Below, in pieces: positions 2,826 to 10,641 of a DNA stretch of 15,556 bases. Under the pieces are notes generated by a model. It was given only the letters and a program-made list of their open reading frames with translations. It did not search any database and had not been told where the DNA came from. Positions within the stretch are counted from its first letter, which is position 1. Every line of letters begins with the position of its first letter. A program made the translations under genes and the position numbers. Source of the DNA: a virus (taxonomy: Duplodnaviria > Heunggongvirae > Uroviricota > Caudoviricetes); IMG/VR virus record IMGVR_UViG_2541047911_000001, positions 1 through 15,556 of that record; one strand, 5' to 3'.

Positions 2826-2953
2826 CTGGTTGAGTATACAGTAGTAGACTTTGAGCGACGAAAGAAAAGGCTGTGTCTAGGGTCGCTCCCGAAAATCCGT
2901 ACACCTCGACGGACTGGTACAGCCACTACAGTAGAGGACGCTGAGGTGTGCGT

Positions 2954-3978: not shown

Positions 3979-4176
3979 ATGTCAAATACGCTTATTCGTT
4001 TAACAGAAGTTCAGCGTAGAACTGGATATAGCAAGGCATGGATTTATCGCCTTATGGGGCAAGGTAAATTTCCTGCATCAGTTAAAATTGGCTCGCGAGC
4101 TATTGCTTTCGTTGAGAGTGAAATTGACGAGTGGATTAATCAGCGTATTGCGGAATCACGCGGAACAGCTACCTGA
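3979..4176 (+). CDS. alpA: AlpA-family small HTH transcriptional regulator (prophage regulatory protein / excisionase-like), 65 aa
   Basis: Translation MSNTLIRLTEVQRRTGYSKAWIYRLMGQGKFPASVKIGSRAIAFVESEIDEWINQRI matches the AlpA/Xis-type pattern; GAGG Shine-Dalgarno 7-8 nt upstream; int-proximal position typical of P4-like and PICI islands. Symbol denotes family membership only. Confidence 0.75.
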   Translation: MSNTLIRLTEVQRRTGYSKAWIYRLMGQGKFPASVKIGSRAIAFVESEIDEWINQRIAESRGTAT

Positions 4177-4253: not shown

Positions 4254-5054
4254 ATGAAATTTCCAAAAATGCCCGTACAGGGGCGGGGCTTCGTTCGGCC
4301 TGAAAACCAGAATCTGCAAAATCTCGGCGAAATTATCCCGATTATTTCCGGCGTTATTGGCGGGAGTGAAACCAATATTGTTAGTGCCAGAGCGTTACAT
4401 AAGGCGTTAGGTGTAGGGCGCGTTTTCCGTTCGTGGATCAAGGGGCGCATTGAAGAATACGGCTTCACGGAAGGCGTGGATTATGAGGTTGTTGAATATT
4501 TGAGCCGACCCGATCCGGTGAGCGCAAAATCTCGCCAGCAAACAGCTCTTGAGTACATCATCACCGTGAACATGGCGAAAGAACTGGCGATGGTCGAACG
4601 TACCGAACAGGGCCGCGCCGTTCGCCAGTACTTTATCAAATGCGAGGAGGAGCTACACAAGGTTGCGCCTGTTCGTTCCGCAGCGTTACGCCGGGAACTG
4701 AAAGCCCGTATCACAGTTGCCAGCTACTTTAAGCCAATGTGTGCCGCGCTGGAGGCGTACCGGGCTGAACTGGGTAAAAACACACTCCAGCACCACTACA
4801 CCACGGAAGCGAACATGCTGGCGCGTATCGTGCTGGGTGGCATGACTGCAAAACAGTGGGCACTGGCGAACGGCATTACAGGCGAACCACGCGACCACAT
4901 GAGCACGTTGCAGCTTGAGCACCTTTCTTACCTTGAGCAGAGCAATATCACGCTGATTGAGTTAGGCCAGGACTACCACCAGCGGAAGGCTGAATTAATT
5001 CGTCTTTCGCAGCGTTGGTTAGCCCGTCGCATGGAGGAAAACAGCCATGTGTAA
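4254..5054 (+). CDS. AntA/AntB-like phage antirepressor-domain protein, 266 aa
   Basis: CAGGAG Shine-Dalgarno before the ATG; N-terminal region (…SARALHKALGV…FRSWIKGRIEEYGFTEGVDYEV… and …TALEYIITVNMAKELAMVERTEQGRAVRQYFIKCEEEL) resembles the AntA antirepressor N-terminal domain; C-terminal half unassigned. Confidence 0.6.
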   Translation: MKFPKMPVQGRGFVRPENQNLQNLGEIIPIISGVIGGSETNIVSARALHKALGVGRVFRSWIKGRIEEYGFTEGVDYEVVEYLSRPDPVSAKSRQQTALEYIITVNMAKELAMVERTEQGRAVRQYFIKCEEELHKVAPVRSAALRRELKARITVASYFKPMCAALEAYRAELGKNTLQHHYTTEANMLARIVLGGMTAKQWALANGITGEPRDHMSTLQLEHLSYLEQSNITLIELGQDYHQRKAELIRLSQRWLARRMEENSHV

Positions 5055-6354
5055 CGCTCTGACCGTTACAAAAAGAGAAAGCGCCCCGTTGCCGGAGCGC
5101 CTTTGTGAACGAATAGCCTACTGCGCCATATTGCTTACTGTCTACGAGGCAGATTATAGCGTTGTGGTCGCACAGAGTGAAGGCGCTGATCACCGTTACT
5201 ACAGCACGCCAGAAATGCAGAATATTTTGCTGCAAAATGTCGTTGGTCACACTGTCCGGAAAGCAAAAAATTTTGCTGGTGGCGCGACTGATGCGATTTT
5301 GTCAGGTCGCCAGGTGCTGATCAATCTGATGTCTGATTTCGTTCTGGATAAAACAAAGGCGACCGCAGAGGGCCGCCAGTGGGAAAGCTACATACTTGAA
5401 CGCATCGCCAACAATGCCAGATTTGCGGCTGGTGGGCAATGTGTCAGCTTTGCACCAATGACTCTATGTTTAACTGAGGGTCATTATGGTGAATATGCTG
5501 GCTTGCTGGTGGGCTATTCCTGCTCTTTAACATTGCCATGCCGCGATGTTTTACAGGTATGCGACCCCATTTTTGTGCGCCTGTACTCTTTAAGGAATTT
5601 CTCAAGGATAAACGCACAGGGCGCGAATCTGTTTGACTCATGCTCGTACGCTATCTTTCTGCGCTGTCTTTTCCGTGCCGGTGATGGTGTATTGGTTGAT
5701 TCTTTGTTGGTCATGGCGCAGCCCTGTAAAACGATGCACCGTAGTTCCTCACACCACGGCGCTGGTGATGGTTACTCCTGTTCTTTGGCCTTGCGGCGCT
5801 GGCGGTATTCAACTTCTCGCTTTAATGCTGCTGTTACAAACTGCCCTGTACTTTCACCAGGCATTTTTACCGCCTCAACATTGTTCATAACTTCATGCGG
5901 AACCCTTGCCGCAACTGTTTGTGATTTTGCGTTTACTGCTTTTGTCGCCATGTTGTGTACCCCTTACAAAAAACAAATGCAGTATGCAGGAAAAAAAATA
6001 AGTGTTCAACACTTGACGTGTTTAACACCTGGGCTTAAATTGGTGTTCAACACCTTGTTGATGCAAGGTGCAGAAACGACAACGCCCCGCAGTGGTGGCA
6101 CACATGCAGGGCGTCTAACCACCAACGATAGCAAGAGTATCGAGGTAGCTATGAGAAATCATACCACACACCCGCAAGGGCGGGACTCGCACAACCTGAA
6201 TAAATACATCTGGCGTTTTATCGCCCTGAGCACGGCACAACCGCGCGTAATTCACATCGAGGCCACCAGCGAACAGGAAGCACGCCAGCAATCTCCTGAT
6301 GGCTGCGTGATGGTATTCGCCGCCCGTATTCGCCAGGAGGTGGAACATGTGTAA
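5047..6354 (+). CDS. Long ORF (435 codons) of doubtful integrity: plausible gene start at 5047 with a protein-like first ~140 codons; the central part is probably not coding
   Basis: Start is translationally coupled to the upstream gene (ATGTGTAA overlap, GGAGGA Shine-Dalgarno). Codons ~150-370 are Cys/Ser/Thr-rich with many rare codons (AGG, ATA, CGG, TTA) and overlap an antisense gene and an operator cluster. Only the last ~67 codons look coding again. Confidence 0.3.
   Translation: MCNALTVTKRESAPLPERLCERIAYCAILLTVYEADYSVVVAQSEGADHRYYSTPEMQNILLQNVVGHTVRKAKNFAGGATDAILSGRQVLINLMSDFVLDKTKATAEGRQWESYILERIANNARFAAGGQCVSFAPMTLCLTEGHYGEYAGLLVGYSCSLTLPCRDVLQVCDPIFVRLYSLRNFSRINAQGANLFDSCSYAIFLRCLFRAGDGVLVDSLLVMAQPCKTMHRSSSHHGAGDGYSCSLALRRWRYSTSRFNAAVTNCPVLSPGIFTASTLFITSCGTLAATVCDFAFTAFVAMLCTPYKKQMQYAGKKISVQHLTCLTPGLKLVFNTLLMQGAETTTPRSGGTHAGRLTTNDSKSIEVAMRNHTTHPQGRDSHNLNKYIWRFIALSTAQPRVIHIEATSEQEARQQSPDGCVMVFAARIRQEVEHV
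5772..5951 (-). CDS. Ribbon-helix-helix-like small DNA-binding protein (59 aa), candidate repressor, antisense to the long ORF
   Basis: Minus-strand ATG at 5951, stop TAA at 5774-5772; translation MATKAVNAKSQTVAARVPHEVMNNVEAVKMPGESTGQFVTAALKREVEYRQRRKAKEQE has a strand-helix-helix pattern and host-like codons; AAGGGG Shine-Dalgarno upstream; divergent from the operator cluster at 6002-6053. Below the 60-aa cutoff of the ORF track. Confidence 0.5.
   Translation of the reverse strand: MATKAVNAKSQTVAARVPHEVMNNVEAVKMPGESTGQFVTAALKREVEYRQRRKAKEQE
6002..6053. promoter_or_regulatory. Three 11-bp palindromic operator-like sites GTGTT-N-AACAC overlapping a rightward promoter-like TTGACG-17-TAAATT
   Basis: GTGTTCAACAC at 6002-6012 and 6043-6053, GTGTTTAACAC at 6018-6028; -35-like TTGACG 6013-6018 and -10-like TAAATT 6036-6041. 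Confidence 0.55.
6151..6354 (+). CDS. small hypothetical protein (67 aa); likely the real first gene of the rightward operon (3' end of the long ORF)
   Basis: ATG at 6151 with GAGG 5-8 nt upstream, about 100 bp downstream of the operator/promoter cluster; ends …IRQEVEHV with an ATGTGTAA overlap into the next gene. Confidence 0.4.
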   Translation: MRNHTTHPQGRDSHNLNKYIWRFIALSTAQPRVIHIEATSEQEARQQSPDGCVMVFAARIRQEVEHV

Positions 6355-6571
6355 TGCAACATGGCCTGATGCAGCGGTAGACGCTATCAAAACGCTGATG
6401 GATTCACTTATTGAGATTTCTGCTATCGCTGGTGTGGCGCATAAACACGCAGCCAGAGAATCAGAATGCATCTCCCATTATTTAGCATTTGTGCAGCTAA
6501 AAGCCGATCAGGCACTGGATAAGGCCGGAAAAATTATCATGGCTGATGTGCAGGAGGTGCACCATGCATAA
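6347..6571 (+). CDS. small hypothetical protein, 74 aa
   Basis: AGGAGG Shine-Dalgarno ~8 nt upstream; start overlaps the upstream stop (ATGTGTAA). Confidence 0.5.
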   Translation: MCNATWPDAAVDAIKTLMDSLIEISAIAGVAHKHAARESECISHYLAFVQLKADQALDKAGKIIMADVQEVHHA

Positions 6572-6929
6572 CCTGTCAATTTCTGACCTTAACAGCATTC
6601 AGTTTGACGAGAAATTTACCGGGCAGTTGCTGGTCAATGTGGAGAACGGGCGCATAGTGCGTAATTACCACCTGCCGGATGGTGCAATTGCCGGAAGCGT
6701 TGAAGCATTGCTGGAACTGGCGGAACGTGCGCGACTGATTAAGCCGTCAACGAGCCATCACGATGATGATCTGCATTTTACCGGGCGTATGGTGAGTCAC
6801 TACGAAAACGGCGTTGAAGTATCCCGCGAACGGCTGCGTGATGATTGCTGTTTCGGCACACTGCCGGAATTTATCGAGTTGCTGACCAGTTGCGGTTATC
6901 AGGTCATTCAGGGGGGTAAACATGCGTGA
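6564..6929 (+). CDS. hypothetical protein, 121 aa (MHNLSISDL…)
   Basis: ATG at 6564 preceded by GGAGG and overlapping the upstream stop (ATGCATAA); preferred over the track's 6546 start, which would place the Shine-Dalgarno inside the coding region. Confidence 0.55.
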   Translation: MHNLSISDLNSIQFDEKFTGQLLVNVENGRIVRNYHLPDGAIAGSVEALLELAERARLIKPSTSHHDDDLHFTGRMVSHYENGVEVSRERLRDDCCFGTLPEFIELLTSCGYQVIQGGKHA

Positions 6930-7155
6930 TGATCGTTTTAATTCCCTGAAACGGGAATTTGATGGCGCACCGGAAGATGCAGCGGGCGCATTGTTGAGCG
7001 TTGCTGACATGATGAAAGCTGCATATTTTCTTATCAATACCAGTGGCTACAAGTCAGAGGGTGAAATGATTCTTAGTATTGCGTCGGACTATGCGGAATA
7101 TGTGGCAGAGACGCGTTACAGAAGAAAATTCACGGAGGATGTAAGCCATGCATAA
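6922..7155 (+). CDS. small hypothetical protein, 77 aa
   Basis: ATGCGTGA start/stop overlap with the upstream gene; G-rich Shine-Dalgarno. Confidence 0.5.
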   Translation: MRDDRFNSLKREFDGAPEDAAGALLSVADMMKAAYFLINTSGYKSEGEMILSIASDYAEYVAETRYRRKFTEDVSHA

Positions 7156-7348
7156 TCATGAAGCGCATGTACCCGTAGTGCTTAATGTGCCAGATGATTT
7201 CACCGGACGCGTACTGGTTTACCTGGATAAAGGGAAAGTGAAATCACAATGCCGACTGAAAAGTAATGAGATTGTTGGTTCTCCTGAATTTTTTTCTGAA
7301 CTTTGTATTCGTGCGGAAATAAAACCGGAACTGCTGACAGGAAAATAA
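7148..7348 (+). CDS. small hypothetical protein, 66 aa
   Basis: ATGCATAA overlap with the upstream stop; GAGGATG Shine-Dalgarno. Confidence 0.5.
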   Translation: MHNHEAHVPVVLNVPDDFTGRVLVYLDKGKVKSQCRLKSNEIVGSPEFFSELCIRAEIKPELLTGK

Positions 7349-7352
7349 AACC

Positions 7353-7643
7353 ATGAAAAAGAAAAATTCTGGCTTTACTGCCAGCGGCCTCTCTCGGCCT
7401 GAAATCCGCCCCGGTGATATTTTCCGGGACACCAGACGCGGGGGACGGGTGGTTATTCGTCACGTTACGCCAGGCAATATCACCTACCGCCGTGAGGCTT
7501 ACGAATATGACTGCGTAATGCCGCGCCGTCAGTTTGATCGTGATTTTATTGTGGTGGAAAACAAACAACAGGCAGTGGCGAGACGTGCAGCCACGAATAT
7601 TAAAAAAATCCGGGCAATGTTGGTTGCGGGAGGTAAGAAGTGA
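7353..7643 (+). CDS. small basic hypothetical protein, 96 aa
   Basis: AGGAAA Shine-Dalgarno; Arg/Lys-rich; stop overlaps the GTG start of the replication gene. Confidence 0.5.
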   Translation: MKKKNSGFTASGLSRPEIRPGDIFRDTRRGGRVVIRHVTPGNITYRREAYEYDCVMPRRQFDRDFIVVENKQQAVARRAATNIKKIRAMLVAGGKK

Positions 7644-9445
7644 AAAACGCACCGAGTCTAAAATATCAGCCGAAGGATAAATTCACTGAGGTAATCATTT
7701 TTGCCGGGATGGATGCTTACGCCCATGCTCAACACTGGATTGAAAGTGAAGGACGAAAACACGGCGATAACGTGCCTCCTGTTTACCTGGGACCAAAGCA
7801 ACTGGCAGACCTGGCGAATATCCGCATTATTGACGAGAAACGCCGTTTTGCGCGTGTCTATATCGCGGGGGAGATAGAGCCAATCCAGATCAATACTATC
7901 GCTGAAAAGCTGGCGCTGGCTGGCGTACAGGAGGCGAAATTATACAAAGGTATCACCGACCAGGAACCGGAGAACTGGCGCGACTACCTGCAACGGATCC
8001 GCGAACAGGCTGAGCACGGGGAAGTTTCAGTGATGAAATTAGCTACAAAAAATAGTGGTCTACCCAAGCCTGCATTAAATCAGATGGGAGCCAGCCAGAG
8101 AGGGGAAGTGTTACTTGAACATTATGGAGGAGCACTGGCGATAAATGATGATTCTGATGTAGTTCACCATTACAACGGAATTGTTTGGGAGCCTGTATCT
8201 GATAAGGAACTCCAGCGGTCTATGGCGAAGATTTTTATTGATGCCGAAATTAGTTATTCGCAAAACGCCATTAAATTTGCCGTAGAGACAATGAAATTGA
8301 GTCTACCTGTTATGGGGGGAGCGGACAGAAATCTTATTGGGTTCAGTAACGGTGTTTTTGATATCAGGACAGGAAATTTTCGGGAACACAACAAAAATGA
8401 CTGGTTGTTAAATGCCAGTGAATTACCGTTCAGCCCGCCAGAAGAGGGGGAAACGCTGGCAACACATGCGCCGAATTTCTGGAAGTGGTTGCGTCGTTCG
8501 GTGGCGGATAATGCTCGTAAAGCGGATCGCGTACTGGCGGCATTATTCATGGTACTGGCGAACCGGTACGACTGGCAGTTATTCCTTGAGGTAACGGGGC
8601 CGGGCGGAAGCGGTAAAAGTGTGATGGCGGAGATTTGTACCATGCTGGCGGGTAAGGCCAATACAGTATCGGCGAGCATGAAGGCGCTGGAAGACGCGAG
8701 GGAACGAGCGTTAGTGGTGGGATATTCTCTGATTATCATGCCTGACATGACCCGCTACGCAGGTGATGGTGCTGGGATTAAGGCCATTACAGGCGGTGAC
8801 AAGGTGGCTATCGATCCGAAACACAAAGCGCCCTATTCCACGCGCGTTCCTGCGGTAGTGCTGGCAGTAAACAATTATGCCATGTCATTCAGCGACCGTA
8901 GTGGGGGGATCTCGCGTCGACGAGTAATATTTAATTTCTCTGAGGTTGTACCAGAGAACGAACGCGATCCGATGCTGGCGAAAAAGATAGAAGGGGAACT
9001 GGCAGTAGTGATTCGCCATTTGCTTACACGATTTGCCGACCAGGACGAAGCGAAAAGACTACTTTATGAGCAGCAAAAATCAGAAGAAGCACTGTTGATA
9101 AAGCGTGAAGGTGATTCGCTGGTGGACTTCTGCGGTTATCTGATGTCGTTGGTTAAATGTGAGGGAATGATAGTAGGTAATGCAGAAATAGTGCCATTTA
9201 GTCCGAGGCGATATCTGTATCATGCTTATTTGGCTTATATGTCTGCGCATGGTCTGGGAAAACCGGTATCACTGACACGCTTTGGTACAGATATGCCAGG
9301 GGCAATGGCTGAGTACGGAAAGGAGTACAAGCGGGCTAAATGCACTAAAGGTCCAGATAAAGGGCGAACGATCACAAATGTTCTGTTAGATAAAGATGCT
9401 GATGGATGGTTACCAGCAACGGCAGGCATTAACGACAGAACATGA
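7640..9445 (+). CDS. P4-family primase/helicase-type replication protein (P-loop NTPase, SF3-helicase-like), 601 aa, GTG start
   Basis: Walker A GPGGSGKS and a downstream hydrophobic-run-plus-Asp Walker B candidate (…LIIMPD…) are visible; size, position (followed by iterons) and architecture match P4 alpha C-terminal or PICI pri-rep proteins; no obvious zinc-binding primase motif. Confidence 0.8.
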   Translation: MKNAPSLKYQPKDKFTEVIIFAGMDAYAHAQHWIESEGRKHGDNVPPVYLGPKQLADLANIRIIDEKRRFARVYIAGEIEPIQINTIAEKLALAGVQEAKLYKGITDQEPENWRDYLQRIREQAEHGEVSVMKLATKNSGLPKPALNQMGASQRGEVLLEHYGGALAINDDSDVVHHYNGIVWEPVSDKELQRSMAKIFIDAEISYSQNAIKFAVETMKLSLPVMGGADRNLIGFSNGVFDIRTGNFREHNKNDWLLNASELPFSPPEEGETLATHAPNFWKWLRRSVADNARKADRVLAALFMVLANRYDWQLFLEVTGPGGSGKSVMAEICTMLAGKANTVSASMKALEDARERALVVGYSLIIMPDMTRYAGDGAGIKAITGGDKVAIDPKHKAPYSTRVPAVVLAVNNYAMSFSDRSGGISRRRVIFNFSEVVPENERDPMLAKKIEGELAVVIRHLLTRFADQDEAKRLLYEQQKSEEALLIKREGDSLVDFCGYLMSLVKCEGMIVGNAEIVPFSPRRYLYHAYLAYMSAHGLGKPVSLTRFGTDMPGAMAEYGKEYKRAKCTKGPDKGRTITNVLLDKDADGWLPATAGINDRT

Positions 9446-9473
9446 TACGAAATTTATAAGTTGAAACTTAAAA

Positions 9474-9809
9474 GTAGACGGTTGGTAGACAGATACACTT
9501 AACCCTCTACCAACCATCTACTAATTAATGTTTTGAATTATATAGGTATTTTTAATGTGGTAGAGAGGTGGACAGTTTATTTTATATTTCTAAACCACGG
9601 GGGTATCTAAAAATAGATAGTTATGGGTTCATTTTTAAAATTTTTCTTTTAACTATCTACACTGTCTACCATTTAGTAAAAGTCATTAATTATCAATGTA
9701 TTAATACTGTAGAGAGTTGGTAGACAGTTTGCAGATTGTTTTTTTGTTATGTATTAATAACATTAAATAAATCAAACAATTATATCGGTAGACAGTTGGT
9801 AGACAGTTG
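9474..9809. repeat. Origin-like AT-rich region with multiple GGTAGACAGTT-type iterons in both orientations
   Basis: GTAGACGGTTGGTAGACAG 9474-9492 with inverted partner CTCTACCAACCATCTAC 9505-9521; GTGGTAGAGAGGTGGACAGTT 9557-9577; ATCTACACTGTCTACC 9655-9670; CTGTAGAGAGTTGGTAGACAGTT 9707-9729; GGTAGACAGTTGGTAGACAGTTG 9787-9809; A/T-rich spacers, e.g. 9620-9650. Confidence 0.65.
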
Positions 9810-9814
9810 TAACG

Positions 9815-10357
9815 ATGGGGCAAAGCATGACTAAGCTGACCATTAACAGAAAACCGAAAGGCATTTACGGCACGCCGCAGAAAACGACGCAGGCGGCGCA
9901 GGAGCAGGATAAAACCACATCGGCGCATAAAGTGATGCCCGGTAACCAGAAAGCGCAGCAAAAGCCCACAGGGGCGACACCGTGGCGGCATATGACCAAA
10001 CGCCAGCGCAAAAACCGCAGGCGCGTTAACCGCCTCACTGAGTTGTGGCCTGACTTATTCAGCCGGGAAGCACCGAAGCCGCTTAAGGTGGGGATATTCG
10101 ACGACCTGATGCAGGATCTCGCCGTCAGGGGGCTGGCATTCGGGCCAGGGGCATTGCGTGCGACGCTGGCATCTTATGCGCAGTGTCCGCACTATTACCG
10201 CGCCTTAATGGCTGGTGGGGTACGCTACGACCTGAAAGGCCAGCCGTGCGGCGAGGTGACACCACAGGAACAACAGGACGCAGAAACGCGGCTGGTGGCG
10301 CTGAATGAGAAGCGCAAACGCCAGCGCCGGGCAGCAAAGGAGACAATAGGCGCATGA
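9815..10357 (+). CDS. ProQ/FinO-domain RNA-binding protein with a basic N-terminal extension, 180 aa
   Basis: Residues …LWPDLFSREAPKPLKVGIFDDLM…LRATLASYAQCPHYYRALMAGGVRYDLKGQPCGEVTPQEQQDAETRLVALNEKRKR align by eye with the E. coli ProQ N-terminal FinO-like domain (…RPLKIGIFQDLV…[35 protein letters not shown]…); an alternative start at ATG 9827 is possible. Confidence 0.75.
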   Translation: MGQSMTKLTINRKPKGIYGTPQKTTQAAQEQDKTTSAHKVMPGNQKAQQKPTGATPWRHMTKRQRKNRRRVNRLTELWPDLFSREAPKPLKVGIFDDLMQDLAVRGLAFGPGALRATLASYAQCPHYYRALMAGGVRYDLKGQPCGEVTPQEQQDAETRLVALNEKRKRQRRAAKETIGA

Positions 10358-10641
10358 TTCACGACAGCAAAGCGGAAGCACTGGAAGCGCGTGGTCTGTA
10401 CCGGAGAGCGGCGGCGCGGTGGGCTGAGGTCATCATGCTGGCGAATGATGACAAGGCACGGGAACAGGCGGCAAAACGTCGCGCGGAATGTATCCACAAG
10501 GCAGCACGCCCACCAGCAAAGCAGGATAATTTCGGGGAGATGCGCGAAACCATCAGCCGGGCACATGCCGGAATGGGATTACATCAGCCCAATGGTAAGG
10601 CATTCAGGAAATATCCTGGATCGAAAAATTGCAGTCAGTGA
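10354..10641 (+). CDS. PerC-family-like small transcriptional activator candidate, 95 aa
   Basis: Start overlaps the upstream stop; N-terminal MIHDSKAEALEARGLYRRAAARWAEV resembles, from memory, the conserved start of PerC/Pch-type proteins of prophage-like elements; tentative. Confidence 0.45.
   Translation: MIHDSKAEALEARGLYRRAAARWAEVIMLANDDKAREQAAKRRAECIHKAARPPAKQDNFGEMRETISRAHAGMGLHQPNGKAFRKYPGSKNCSQ

What the first reader, a model, noticed from the sequence alone, without database searches (positions are those of the whole stretch)
5440..6354. Hidden divergent switch: antisense ribbon-helix-helix-like gene and three operators inside an apparently continuous 435-codon ORF
The plus-strand ORF 5047-6354 looks like one large gene, but its middle third is Cys/Ser-rich with rare codons. 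On the opposite strand, 5951-5772 encodes a 59-aa protein with a convincing strand-helix-helix pattern and host-like codons. Just upstream of its start lie three 11-bp palindromes GTGTT-N-AACAC (6002-6012, 6018-6028, 6043-6053) interleaved with a rightward TTGACG-17-TAAATT promoter-like element. A well-formed small gene then begins at 6151. This is the architecture of a repressor/operator immunity switch controlling the rightward operon that ends in the replication gene. Gene callers will likely annotate the long ORF and miss the switch.
Basis: partly seen in the sequence, partly recalled or inferred. Interest (0 to 1): 0.65.

Follow-up and report, generated by a model that had tools for sequence, protein, structure and literature searches.

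The report
Satellite-island repressor switch inside overlapping gene
A phage-satellite island of E. coli carries a small, divergently transcribed repressor gene with its operators, hidden on the opposite strand of a long reading frame that evolution keeps open, which offers a candidate for the master repressor said to be unclear in Gram-negative islands of this kind.

Summary
The window holds the 435-codon plus-strand ORF 5047-6354, the antisense 59-aa ORF 5951-5772, three GTGTT-N-AACAC palindromes (6002, 6018, 6043), TTGACG-17-TAAATT (6013-6041) and a small gene starting at 6151.

The window is an E. coli phage-inducible chromosomal island (PICI) inserted at tRNA-Thr next to proA. The 59-aa protein belongs to the YlcI/YnfO family, and its model resembles ribbon-helix-helix (RHH) proteins. 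The gene at 6151 is Icd-like and is a homologue of phage P4 kil.

Across about 45 loci from many Enterobacterales, the promoter and operator layout is fixed. The operator core changes together with residues 12 and 14 of the YlcI N-terminal segment, but not with AlpA or Icd. This supports a repressor/operator switch on the replication operon.

- RefSeq annotation already calls ylcI and does not call the long ORF.
- The long ORF is not a meaningless shadow. Its frame has no stops antisense to ylcI in 43 of 44 genes and none across the operators in 26 of 28 non-redundant loci. It runs in frame into icd and starts at the stop of the upstream gene, as P4 eta does with kil.

I read it as a P4-type eta/kil immunity region in which a protein repressor takes the place of the CI RNA. 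The model island EcCICFT073 carries the same module.

The parts
5047..6354 (+). Long 'eta-like' ORF of 435 codons. Its last 67 codons are the Icd-like gene. Its start ATG overlaps the antA stop (ATGTGTAA).
   Evidence: The frame is kept open antisense to ylcI in 43 of 44 genes and across the operators in 26 of 28 non-redundant loci. It is in frame with icd in at least 33 of 44 loci. Its start is coupled to the upstream gene in many loci. The N-terminal 131 aa is found only in E. coli.
5358..5377 (-). Terminator-like hairpin followed by a T-run, on the minus strand. Candidate end of the leftward ylcI-orf66 transcript.
   Evidence: The corresponding plus-frame peptide 'KTKAT' is also present in EcCICFT073. 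Function is inferred.
5514..5714 (-). orf66, a small basic protein downstream of ylcI in the leftward unit.
   Evidence: phrog_21027, E 7e-30. Annotated by PGAP. The N-terminal 45 aa are conserved in all E. coli loci and not detected outside E. coli. Function unknown.
5736..5762 (-). Hairpin plus a short T-run just after the ylcI stop. Possible partial terminator or attenuator.
   Evidence: Consensus match only.
5772..5951 (-). ylcI-like gene: 59-aa RHH-like putative repressor.
5981..6009 (-). Putative leftward promoter of ylcI: -35 TTGAAC (6009-6004, inside O1), 17-nt spacer, -10 CATACT (5986-5981).
   Evidence: Read. It scores 8 of 12, below the scan threshold. The homologous -10 (TATACT, seen as 'CAGTATAC' on the plus strand) is conserved in most loci. 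Inferred.
6002..6012 (.). Operator O1, GTGTTCAACAC. It abuts the -35 of the rightward promoter and covers the -35 of the leftward promoter.
   Evidence: Also present in L016 and L020.
6013..6041 (+). Rightward promoter PR: TTGACG, 17 nt, TAAATT.
   Evidence: The -35 TTGAC sits at a fixed offset (+61 from the ylcI ATG) in nearly all loci.
6018..6028 (.). Operator O2, GTGTTTAACAC, in the PR spacer and sharing one base with the -35.
   Evidence: Same register in about 35 loci.
6043..6053 (.). Operator O3, GTGTTCAACAC, just after the -10 and over the expected transcription start.
   Evidence: A copy lies at +88 to +92 in nearly all loci.
6051..6070 (+). Leader hairpin 1 (CACCTTG..CAAGGTG) at the 5' end of the PR transcript.
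   Evidence: An equivalent inverted repeat is visible in many loci.
6082..6114 (+). Leader hairpin 2, a GC-rich two-part stem, followed by the conserved C-rich stretch TCTAACCACCAAC.
   Evidence: compensatory changes. (whole leader folds at -36.7 kcal/mol, z -3.66). No Rfam family matches here.
6126..6145 (+). Leader hairpin 3 (CGATA..TATCG) abutting the Shine-Dalgarno GAGG at 6142-6145.
   Evidence: five pairs, four with compensatory changes. In other lineages the GGAG lies in the loop.
6151..6354 (+). Icd-like gene (67 aa), first gene of the rightward replication operon and homologue of P4 kil.
   Evidence: NF033153, E 3.8e-20. The same domain lies at the C-terminus of the old P4 'cI ORF', which is eta/kil, E 7.8e-21. 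PGAP uses this start in relatives.
6347..9445 (+). Rest of the controlled operon: overlapping small ORFs, a DUF4222 gene and the primase (7640-9445).

Best explanation
The segment 5047-6354 is the immunity and commitment region of a Gram-negative PICI, and it is built like the eta/kil region of satellite phage P4. A protein repressor takes the place of P4's CI RNA, and it is encoded on the opposite strand.

(1) Repression. The 59-aa YlcI-family protein is made from a weak leftward promoter. It is an RHH-type DNA-binding protein that recognises 11-bp GTG-N5-CAC sites. In this window the sites are O1, O2 and O3. O2 lies in the spacer of the rightward promoter PR and O3 lies over its start, so bound YlcI shuts PR. 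This silences the operon that begins with the Icd-like (Kil-like) gene and ends with the primase. O1 covers the -35 of the leftward promoter, which would give autoregulation.

(2) Bypass. The long plus-strand ORF is the counterpart of P4 eta. It starts at the stop codon of the upstream gene (antA here), runs antisense through orf66 and ylcI and across the operators, and ends as Icd. When transcription enters from upstream, for example from the AlpA-activated promoter after helper induction, ribosomes would translate this frame. That translation would protect the read-through transcript from premature termination, carry it past the repressed PR into the replication genes, and at the same time interfere with leftward ylcI expression.

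Shown here: gene identities, layout, covariation, and selection for an open frame. Inferred: DNA binding by YlcI, promoter activity, and the read-through and anti-termination role.
For: Context:
- The island lies at tRNA-Thr next to proA and carries int, alpA, antA, a primase and PerC.
- The same ylcI(-)/icd(+) module is in the prototype EcCICFT073. Some part of window 5700-6360 matches 1522 of 5426 complete E. coli genomes, and 601 carry at least 80% of it.

YlcI as the DNA binder:
- S10, R16 and G32-E33-S34 are invariant. Positions 12 and 14 are the most variable, and 13, 15 and 17 are hydrophobic. This alternation is what an RHH beta-ribbon predicts.

Operators:
- Positions are fixed relative to TTGAC in about 40 loci from Edwardsiella, Pectobacterium, Kosakonia, Yersinia, Xenorhabdus, Proteus and other genera.
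- The operator core tracks the YlcI N-terminus across genera, for example QT[VLI]AAR with GTGTTCAACAC, KKLEAR with GTGGCTGACAC and KR[IF]D[AV]R with GTGTCCGACAC.
- Loci with the same operator share at least 75% YlcI N-terminal identity; loci with different operators share at most 62%. AlpA (22-99%) and Icd identity are unrelated to operator type.

The eta-like ORF:
- One antisense phase of ylcI has no stops in 43 of 44 genes, against 136 and 159 stops in the other two phases.
- None of 216 codons preceding His/Gln codons ends in T, although T is 20% of third positions. None of 36 codons preceding TAN ends in T or C.
- The frame has no stops in the 185-nt promoter/operator stretch in 26 of 28 non-redundant loci, with a shuffle null of about 0.024. 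The other two frames average about 5 stops and are never free of stops.
- It is in frame with icd, and its start overlaps the stop of the upstream gene in many loci.
- The exception, L018, is a ylcI locus with no PR or icd next to it.

Link to P4:
- The P4 eta/kil ORF carries the same Icd-like domain.
- The P4 logic is described in PMC10111431.
Against: - There is no experimental evidence here for DNA binding, promoter activity, transcripts or translation of either strand.
- The AF2 monomer did not model the N-terminal strand as beta (low pLDDT). Foldseek found nothing. No Pfam RHH model or PDB sequence search reached significance. hhalign against Arc gave only 9.5% probability.
- ylcI and the operators are adjacent, so part of their co-variation could reflect inheritance as one recombination block.
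- Spacing between sites (16, 22 or 25 bp) is not a clean helical repeat.
- The middle of the long ORF is not conserved as protein, and its N-terminus occurs only in E. coli. A functional Eta-like polypeptide is therefore doubtful.
- Nine of 44 loci have lost the continuous frame.
- A Rho-dependent terminator in the region was not tested.
Confidence: 0.65

Rival explanations
1. One reading: a plain divergent repressor/operator switch, with the 435-codon ORF being an accidental 'shadow' frame of no function.
For: The middle segment is Cys- and Ser-rich. It is not conserved as protein between operator types. PGAP does not call it. The N-terminal part is restricted to E. coli.
Against: Stop codons are absent from exactly this frame in 43 of 44 ylcI genes and 26 of 28 intergenic regions, while the other frames average 3-5 stops. 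There is a synonymous-site signature, with none of 216 codons before CAN ending in T. The frame is joined to icd and coupled to the upstream gene. P4 provides a precedent.
Confidence: 0.15
2. The GTG-N5-CAC sites are bound by another factor (AlpA, the Icd-like protein, a helper-phage protein or a host protein). YlcI would then do something else, for example neutralise the toxic Icd/Kil product like an RHH antitoxin, or act in packaging as its position near terminase genes in lambdoid prophages might suggest (the lambdoid position is my own recollection, not checked here).
Against: AlpA and Icd can be 97-99% identical between loci with different operators, and 22-46% identical between loci with the same operator. 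Only YlcI tracks operator type, including across genera where the flanking intergenic bases differ. The variable residues are those an RHH ribbon would point at the DNA.
Confidence: 0.1
3. Control is mainly RNA-based, as in P4 or the P1 immI operon. The conserved leader hairpins would yield a small immunity RNA or an attenuator, and the palindromes would be secondary.
For: The leader has conserved hairpins with compensatory changes and folds well (z -3.66). The related locus L012 has a true isrK plus C4 pair inserted in this leader. The island encodes a ProQ/FinO-family protein.
Against: No C4 or isrK match in the window, EcCICFT073, L017 or L046. I saw no conserved complementarity between the hairpin loop and the icd ribosome-binding site by inspection. 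The operator-YlcI covariation remains unexplained under this reading. It is more likely an added layer than an alternative.
Confidence: 0.08
4. ORF 5047-6354 encodes one genuine 435-aa protein, and the antisense ylcI ORF is spurious.
For: It is a continuous ORF with a coupled start.
Against: YlcI is conserved as a protein across Enterobacterales, with invariant residues and a curated family model. Its predicted fold is confident for residues 20-59. The plus-frame peptide over the same DNA is not conserved.
Confidence: 0.02

Closest known systems
Satellite phage P4 immunity region (promoter PLE, CI RNA with seqA/seqC, nested genes eta and kil, upstream late promoter PLL)
   Same: The first gene of the replication operon is an Icd-like/Kil protein (NF033153 in both). 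It is the 3' end of a longer in-frame ORF that begins upstream of the internal promoter and is translationally coupled to the preceding gene (PMC10111431). The operon ends in a primase.
   Different: There is no CI/C4 RNA and no seqA/isrK element. Instead, a protein repressor gene lies antisense inside the eta-like ORF, with operators on the internal promoter. A Rho-dependent terminator equivalent to P4 timm has not been shown here.
Phage P22 immI region (the RHH repressors Arc and Mnt, with divergent Pant and Pmnt promoters and overlapping operators). Recalled from my own knowledge.
   Same: A small RHH repressor, divergent promoters with short symmetric operators overlapping both, an antirepressor-family gene in the neighbourhood, and autoregulation.
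   Different: The controlled genes are a cell-division inhibitor and replication genes, not ant. The repressor gene is embedded antisense in another ORF.
Phage P1 immI operon (c4 RNA, icd, ant). Recalled from my own knowledge.
   Same: An Icd-family gene is the first translated gene under immunity control. Antirepressor-family genes are associated.
   Different: P1 uses an antisense RNA acting on the icd ribosome-binding site. Here the candidate controller is a DNA-binding protein.
Stl/Rpr master repressors of Gram-positive PICIs (SaPIs)
   Same: A divergently transcribed repressor sits at the head of the island's replication operon (PMC6092414).
   Different: The protein family and size are unrelated. 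The anti-repression route is unknown here. Gram-negative PICIs were described as unidirectionally transcribed, with the existence of a repressor unclear.
EcCICFT073 and EcCIMP1 (characterised E. coli PICIs)
   Same: EcCICFT073 carries the same ylcI/orf/icd module and the same open frame. EcCIMP1 occupies the same proA-flanked site, which in this window is the tRNA-Thr gene (PMC11773190).
   Different: The operator type differs (GTGGGCCACAC in EcCICFT073). The term searches in those two papers found no mention of YlcI or Icd (EcCIMP1 paper) or of a divergent regulator in Gram-negative islands (Fillol-Salom 2018).

Membership tests
YlcI/YnfO family (NCBIfam NF041551) | Score above the curated cutoff of the family HMM | tested here: met
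   59.7 bits against a cutoff of 30, E 2.1e-16, residues 9-50. PGAP gives the same name.
Ribbon-helix-helix (Arc/MetJ/CopG) DNA-binding fold | Structural similarity to solved RHH proteins | tested here: met
Ribbon-helix-helix (Arc/MetJ/CopG) DNA-binding fold | N-terminal beta-strand with alternating DNA-facing and core residues, then helix A, a G-x-S/T turn and helix B | tested here: inconclusive
   The sequence pattern fits: S10 and R16 invariant, 12 and 14 variable, 13/15/17 hydrophobic, G32-E33-S34 invariant. However, the AF2 monomer modelled residues 8-15 as a low-confidence helix. A dimer could not be modelled.
Ribbon-helix-helix (Arc/MetJ/CopG) DNA-binding fold | Significant match to a sequence model of an RHH family | tested here: not met
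   No Pfam RHH family at E <= 10 apart from weak sub-threshold hits (PSK_trans_fac, CB_ParB_C). The PDB profile search found no RHH entry. hhalign against Arc gave 9.5% probability.
Ribbon-helix-helix (Arc/MetJ/CopG) DNA-binding fold | Dimerisation and sequence-specific DNA binding | not testable with these tools
   Only indirect evidence: operator-protein covariation.
P4-type eta/kil nested immunity region | An Icd-like (Kil) gene is the first gene of the primase operon | tested here: met
   NF033153 in window 6151-6354 (E 3.8e-20) and at the C-terminus of P4 ORF 8168-8584 (E 7.8e-21). The operon order is shown.
P4-type eta/kil nested immunity region | A longer in-frame ORF starts upstream of the internal promoter and is translationally coupled to the preceding gene | tested here: met
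   Window ATG 5047 overlaps the antA stop. The feature is conserved across loci.
P4-type eta/kil nested immunity region | CI (C4-family) immunity RNA and its seqA/isrK target in the leader | tested here: not met
   No RF01695 or RF01394 match in the window at E <= 1. The same models find both elements in P4 and in L012.
P4-type eta/kil nested immunity region | A Rho-dependent terminator that is suppressed by translation of eta/kil | not testable with these tools
   Only the selection for an open frame is seen.
Gram-negative PICI (EcCICFT073-like) | Order int - alpA - variable Bro/Ant zone - replication module, inserted at a specific chromosomal site | tested here: met
   (tRNA-Thr, the int-alpA RNA motif, AlpA Pfam hit, AntA, primase, PerC). 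The same module is in EcCICFT073.
Gram-negative PICI (EcCICFT073-like) | Induction and packaging by a helper phage | not testable with these tools
   -

The most novel reading that the evidence does not exclude
Gram-negative PICIs, including the model island EcCICFT073, do have a master repressor: the YlcI-family RHH protein. Its gene is read antisense to a translated eta-like ORF. Selection keeps that ORF open only so that ribosomes can escort read-through transcripts past the repressed promoter. About 0.7 kb of DNA would then be functional on both strands and form a two-promoter commitment switch. As a by-product, the family would be a natural set of a dozen or more orthogonal repressor/operator pairs whose specificity is set largely by residues 12 and 14.
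Probability: 0.4. Interest if true: 0.8.

Novelty: new variant of a known kind. Interest (0 to 1): 0.66.

Why it matters

The module found here is present in the prototype EcCICFT073. At least part of it is in about a quarter of complete E. coli genomes, and the full stretch is in about a tenth. It offers a concrete candidate repressor, defined operators and a testable model of how helper-induced upstream transcription could override it.

It also links PICIs to P4 mechanistically. The eta/kil scaffold is the same and the immunity cartridge differs, and locus L012 carries both cartridges.

The statistical case for a reading frame kept open antisense to a real gene and across promoter DNA is unusually clear. 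The operator-residue covariation gives a ready specificity code for a small RHH family whose function is uncharacterised.

Tried and rejected
- Rfam search for a P4/P1-type C4 or isrK immunity RNA in the leader: none in the window at E <= 1. The models do work on P4 and on L012.
- Foldseek of the YlcI model against the PDB: no hits. The afdb50 library was unavailable.
- Profile search of PDB sequences: only spurious hits.
- Pfam on all alignment members: nothing above threshold.
- hhalign against Arc: weak.
- tblastn of the Icd-like protein against phage records: one hit only, a 16.5-kb 'phage' that is probably a packaged island. P4 and P1 were not found at this sensitivity. The P4 link needed the NCBIfam HMM.
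- Literature searches for YlcI, YnfO, DUF3950, or for an RHH or master repressor in Gram-negative PICIs found no functional study. Forti et al. 1999 is not held and is cited only through PMC10111431.
- I considered that the open frame is a by-product of YlcI amino-acid composition. Synonymous recoding gives a zero-stop probability of about 0.40 per gene, which cannot explain 43 of 44 genes or the intergenic result.
- I considered AlpA or Icd as the operator binder and rejected both.
- I considered PGAP's 5950 start or the alternative ATG 6061 for icd (phrog_6196 members extend about 26 residues upstream of the 6151 start). In relatives, PGAP uses the ATG homologous to 6151, which has a good Shine-Dalgarno sequence.
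Full report
**What is in the window.** The window is E. coli chromosome. It is 100% identical over 5000-6600 to NZ_CP092252 and several other genomes. An island is inserted at tRNA-Thr (1369-1441) just after proA. Its order is integrase 1611-2825, an int-alpA RNA motif 2870-2937, an AlpA-family HTH gene 3979-4176, an AntA/AntB antirepressor-family gene 4254-5054, the region in question, a chain of overlapping small ORFs, a DUF4222 gene, a primase 7640-9445, a ProQ/FinO-family gene and a PerC-family gene. This is the organisation of Gram-negative phage-inducible chromosomal islands (PICIs). The characterised island EcCIMP1 occupies the same proA-flanked site (PMC11773190).

**Check of the observation.**
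- The ORFs are 5047-6354 (435 aa, plus strand) and 5772-5951 (59 aa, minus strand).
- The three palindromes are the only matches to GTGTTNAACAC in the window, even with one mismatch allowed.
- TTGACG-17-TAAATT at 6013-6041 is the only promoter-like site the scan finds in 5300-6400.
- ATG 6151 follows a GAGG.
- The middle of the long ORF is Cys- and Ser-rich, but its codon usage is only mildly worse than that of real genes.

**Identity of the genes.**
- The 59-aa protein matches NCBIfam YlcI_YnfO_N (59.7 bits, cutoff 30) and phrog_949.
- The 6151 gene matches the Icd-like domain NF033153 (E 3.8e-20).
- In the identical RefSeq genome, PGAP annotates ylcI, a 66-aa minus-strand ORF (5514-5714, phrog_21027) and an Icd-like CDS. 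It does not annotate the 435-aa ORF. It starts the Icd-like CDS at 5950, running it across the operators.
- In ten related loci PGAP starts the Icd-like gene at the ATG homologous to 6151, giving 65-68 aa, so 6151 is the better start. L011 has a longer 121-aa call, and in L012 an insertion displaces the Icd-like gene.

**Comparative evidence for the switch.**
- Distribution: some part of window 5700-6360 matches 1522 of 5426 complete E. coli genomes, and 601 carry at least 80% of it. The module is in the prototype island EcCICFT073. It also occurs in Edwardsiella, Pectobacterium, Kosakonia, Yersinia, Yokenella, Xenorhabdus, Proteus, Klebsiella and other genera.
- Layout: in about 40 loci the -35 TTGAC sits at +61 from the ylcI ATG. 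An 11-mer of the form GTG-N5-CAC starts on the last base of that hexamer. A second copy lies at +88 to +92, over the -10 and the start. In most lineages a third copy lies at +21, next to a conserved TATACT on the minus strand, which is the likely -10 of the ylcI promoter.
- Window lineage: the +21 site is degenerate, and an extra site (O1, 6002-6012) lies just upstream of the -35, where it covers a possible leftward -35.
- Covariation: the central five bases differ between islands and follow the YlcI N-terminal segment, including across genera. Examples are QT[VLI]AAR with GTGTTCAACAC (E. coli, Edwardsiella, Pectobacterium, Kosakonia), KKLEAR with GTGGCTGACAC (Xenorhabdus, Pectobacterium), KR[IF]D[AV]R with GTGTCCGACAC (E. 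coli, Yersinia, Pectobacterium) and Q[SA]LK[SA]R with GTGGGCCACAC (EcCICFT073, Dryocola, Yokenella).
- Specificity of the covariation: among the E. coli loci, pairs with the same operator share at least 75% identity over YlcI residues 1-32, and pairs with different operators share at most 62%. AlpA and Icd identities are unrelated to operator type. AlpA can be 99% identical with different operators and 22% identical with the same one.

This is the pattern of heteroimmune repressor/operator cartridges. It identifies YlcI, rather than AlpA or Icd, as the specificity partner. Binding itself is inferred.

**The long ORF is not an accident.**
- In all E. coli loci examined except L012, which has an insertion, the icd frame stays open for 233-541 codons upstream of the icd ATG, although the operators and the ylcI N-terminus are highly diverged.
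- Across 44 distinct ylcI genes, one antisense phase has no stop codon in 43. The other two phases carry 136 and 159 stops in total.
- The single exception, L018, is a ylcI locus without the PR/icd neighbourhood. It serves as a natural control.
- The cause is visible at synonymous sites. None of 216 codons preceding a His or Gln codon ends in T, although T is 20% of third positions. None of 36 codons preceding TAN ends in a pyrimidine. Synonymous recoding gives a zero-stop probability of only about 0.40 per gene.
- In the 185 nt of promoter/operator DNA after the ylcI ATG, the same frame has no stops in 26 of 28 non-redundant loci. The shuffle expectation is about 0.024. The other two frames average about five stops and are never free of stops.
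- In at least 33 of 44 loci the frame runs on into the Icd-like gene and ends at its stop.
- Its first start codon overlaps or abuts the stop of the upstream gene, which is AlpA or a Bro/Ant gene. Examples are ATGTGTAA in the window and ATGA, GTGA, TAATG or TGATG elsewhere.
- The encoded peptide is not conserved between operator types, and the N-terminal 131 aa is found only in E. coli. Selection therefore acts on translatability rather than on a protein sequence.

**Relation to P4.** The old 'cI ORF' of P4 (X51522 8168-8584), which contains eta and kil, carries the same Icd-like domain at its C-terminus (E 7.8e-21). PMC10111431, citing Forti et al. 1999, summarises the P4 system as follows.
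- kil is the 3' part of the longer ORF eta.
- A constitutive promoter lies inside eta.
- Transcripts from that promoter are terminated under CI RNA immunity.
[quoted passage not shown] It lacks the RNA cartridge. Rfam C4 and isrK are absent from the window, EcCICFT073 and two other loci, but are found in P4. One E. coli locus, L012, has both: ylcI with its operators, followed by an isrK plus C4 pair inserted before icd.

I therefore propose that the YlcI/operator cartridge is an alternative immunity module of the same regulatory design. I also propose that the eta-like ORF allows upstream, AlpA-driven transcription to bypass the repressed PR. AlpA was shown to activate downstream EcCICFT073 genes (PMC6092414). 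The read-through and anti-termination steps are inference by analogy.

**Further anatomy.**
- The PR leader (6048-6150) folds into three hairpins (-36.7 kcal/mol, z -3.66).
- In an alignment of 32 loci, two of the hairpins are recovered, with compensatory changes in 12 of 14 pairs.
- The third hairpin abuts or encloses the icd Shine-Dalgarno sequence. A conserved C-rich stretch, TCTAACCACCAAC, follows the second.
- These elements may tune Icd translation, or serve as a site for Rho or for an RNA-binding protein. I did not resolve this.
- On the minus strand, terminator-like hairpins lie after ylcI (5762-5736) and at 5377-5358. The latter could end the leftward transcript without blocking rightward read-through.

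[quoted passage not shown] The 2023 survey treats the Bro zone as the seat of P4-like immunity RNAs (PMC10111431). My term searches in that paper found no occurrence of 'operator', 'ribbon' or 'DUF3950'. A 2026 survey lists YlcI/YnfO only as a 'prophage-associated protein' (PMC13612085). Searches of the held library found no functional study of YlcI or YnfO. Subscription papers are not covered, so prior description cannot be excluded.

**Verdict.** The repressor/operator interpretation is well supported by comparative evidence, although it is untested biochemically. The dismissal of the long ORF and the prediction about gene callers are wrong. The feature is a new variant of a known kind: a P4-type eta/kil immunity region with an antisense-embedded RHH-like repressor in place of the CI RNA.

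Noticed in passing
window 5950-6354 (NZ_CP092252 locus tag MF614_RS24645): In the identical genome, PGAP starts the Icd-like CDS at 5950 (134 aa), running it over the ylcI start, both promoters and all three operators. In ten related loci the same pipeline-68 aa from the ATG homologous to 6151. This looks like an annotation artefact caused by the open frame.
   Followed up: yes
L012 2759-2944 (NZ_CP023541, E. coli O104:H21): A hybrid immunity region. ylcI and the GTGTTCAACAC operators are followed by an inserted isrK (seqA-like) and C4 (CI-like) RNA pair before the Icd-like gene. PGAP labels the insert a partial 'ash family protein'. Both immunity cartridges sit in one island.
   Followed up: partly
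window 6048-6150: Structured leader of the rightward transcript: three hairpins, two of them supported by compensatory changes across genera. The last one abuts or encloses the icd Shine-Dalgarno sequence. A conserved C-rich stretch, TCTAACCACCAAC, follows the second. No Rfam family matches.
   Followed up: partly
window 5514-5714 (minus strand): A 66-aa basic ORF downstream of ylcI (phrog_21027). Its first 45 residues are conserved in every E. coli locus examined, including loci where PGAP does not call it, and were not detected outside E. coli. Function unknown. It also lies antisense to the open eta-like frame.
   Followed up: partly
L008, L009, L011, L013 (E. coli): YlcI variants of 101 aa carry a roughly 42-residue insert (AEGSGEN...VAREEL) between the RHH-like core and the conserved basic tail RRKAKE. 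This could be an extra oligomerisation or sensor domain.
   Followed up: no
L018 and L019 (Enterobacteriaceae RIT693, Cedecea neteri): ylcI homologues whose upstream region has no TTGAC promoter, leader hairpins or Icd-like gene. In L018, the one of the two included in the test, the antisense frame is not open (2 stops). This is a natural negative control for the open-frame selection.
   Followed up: partly
window 2870-2937: Match to the Rfam int-alpA RNA motif (RF02996, 45.5 bits, above the gathering score) between the integrase gene and the next ORF. The same motif is found in the Pectobacterium locus L017.
   Followed up: no
window 5047-5054 and 6347-6354; ORF chain 6347-7643: The same ATGTGTAA start/stop overlap occurs at both ends of the long ORF (antA to eta-like, and icd to the next ORF). 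The small ORFs up to the primase overlap one another, which suggests one translationally coupled chain from antA to the primase.
   Followed up: no
window 9815-10641: The island encodes a ProQ/FinO-family RNA-binding protein and a PerC-family regulator. The PerC gene is annotated as frameshifted in the identical RefSeq genome. A link between the ProQ-like protein and the structured leader is conceivable but was not examined.
   Followed up: no
phage record LR881103.1 (vB_KppS-Ant, 16.5 kb), 9397-9525: This is the only record in the phage collection that tblastn finds with the Icd-like protein. Its size and content suggest a packaged PICI or capsid-forming PICI deposited as a phage.
   Followed up: no
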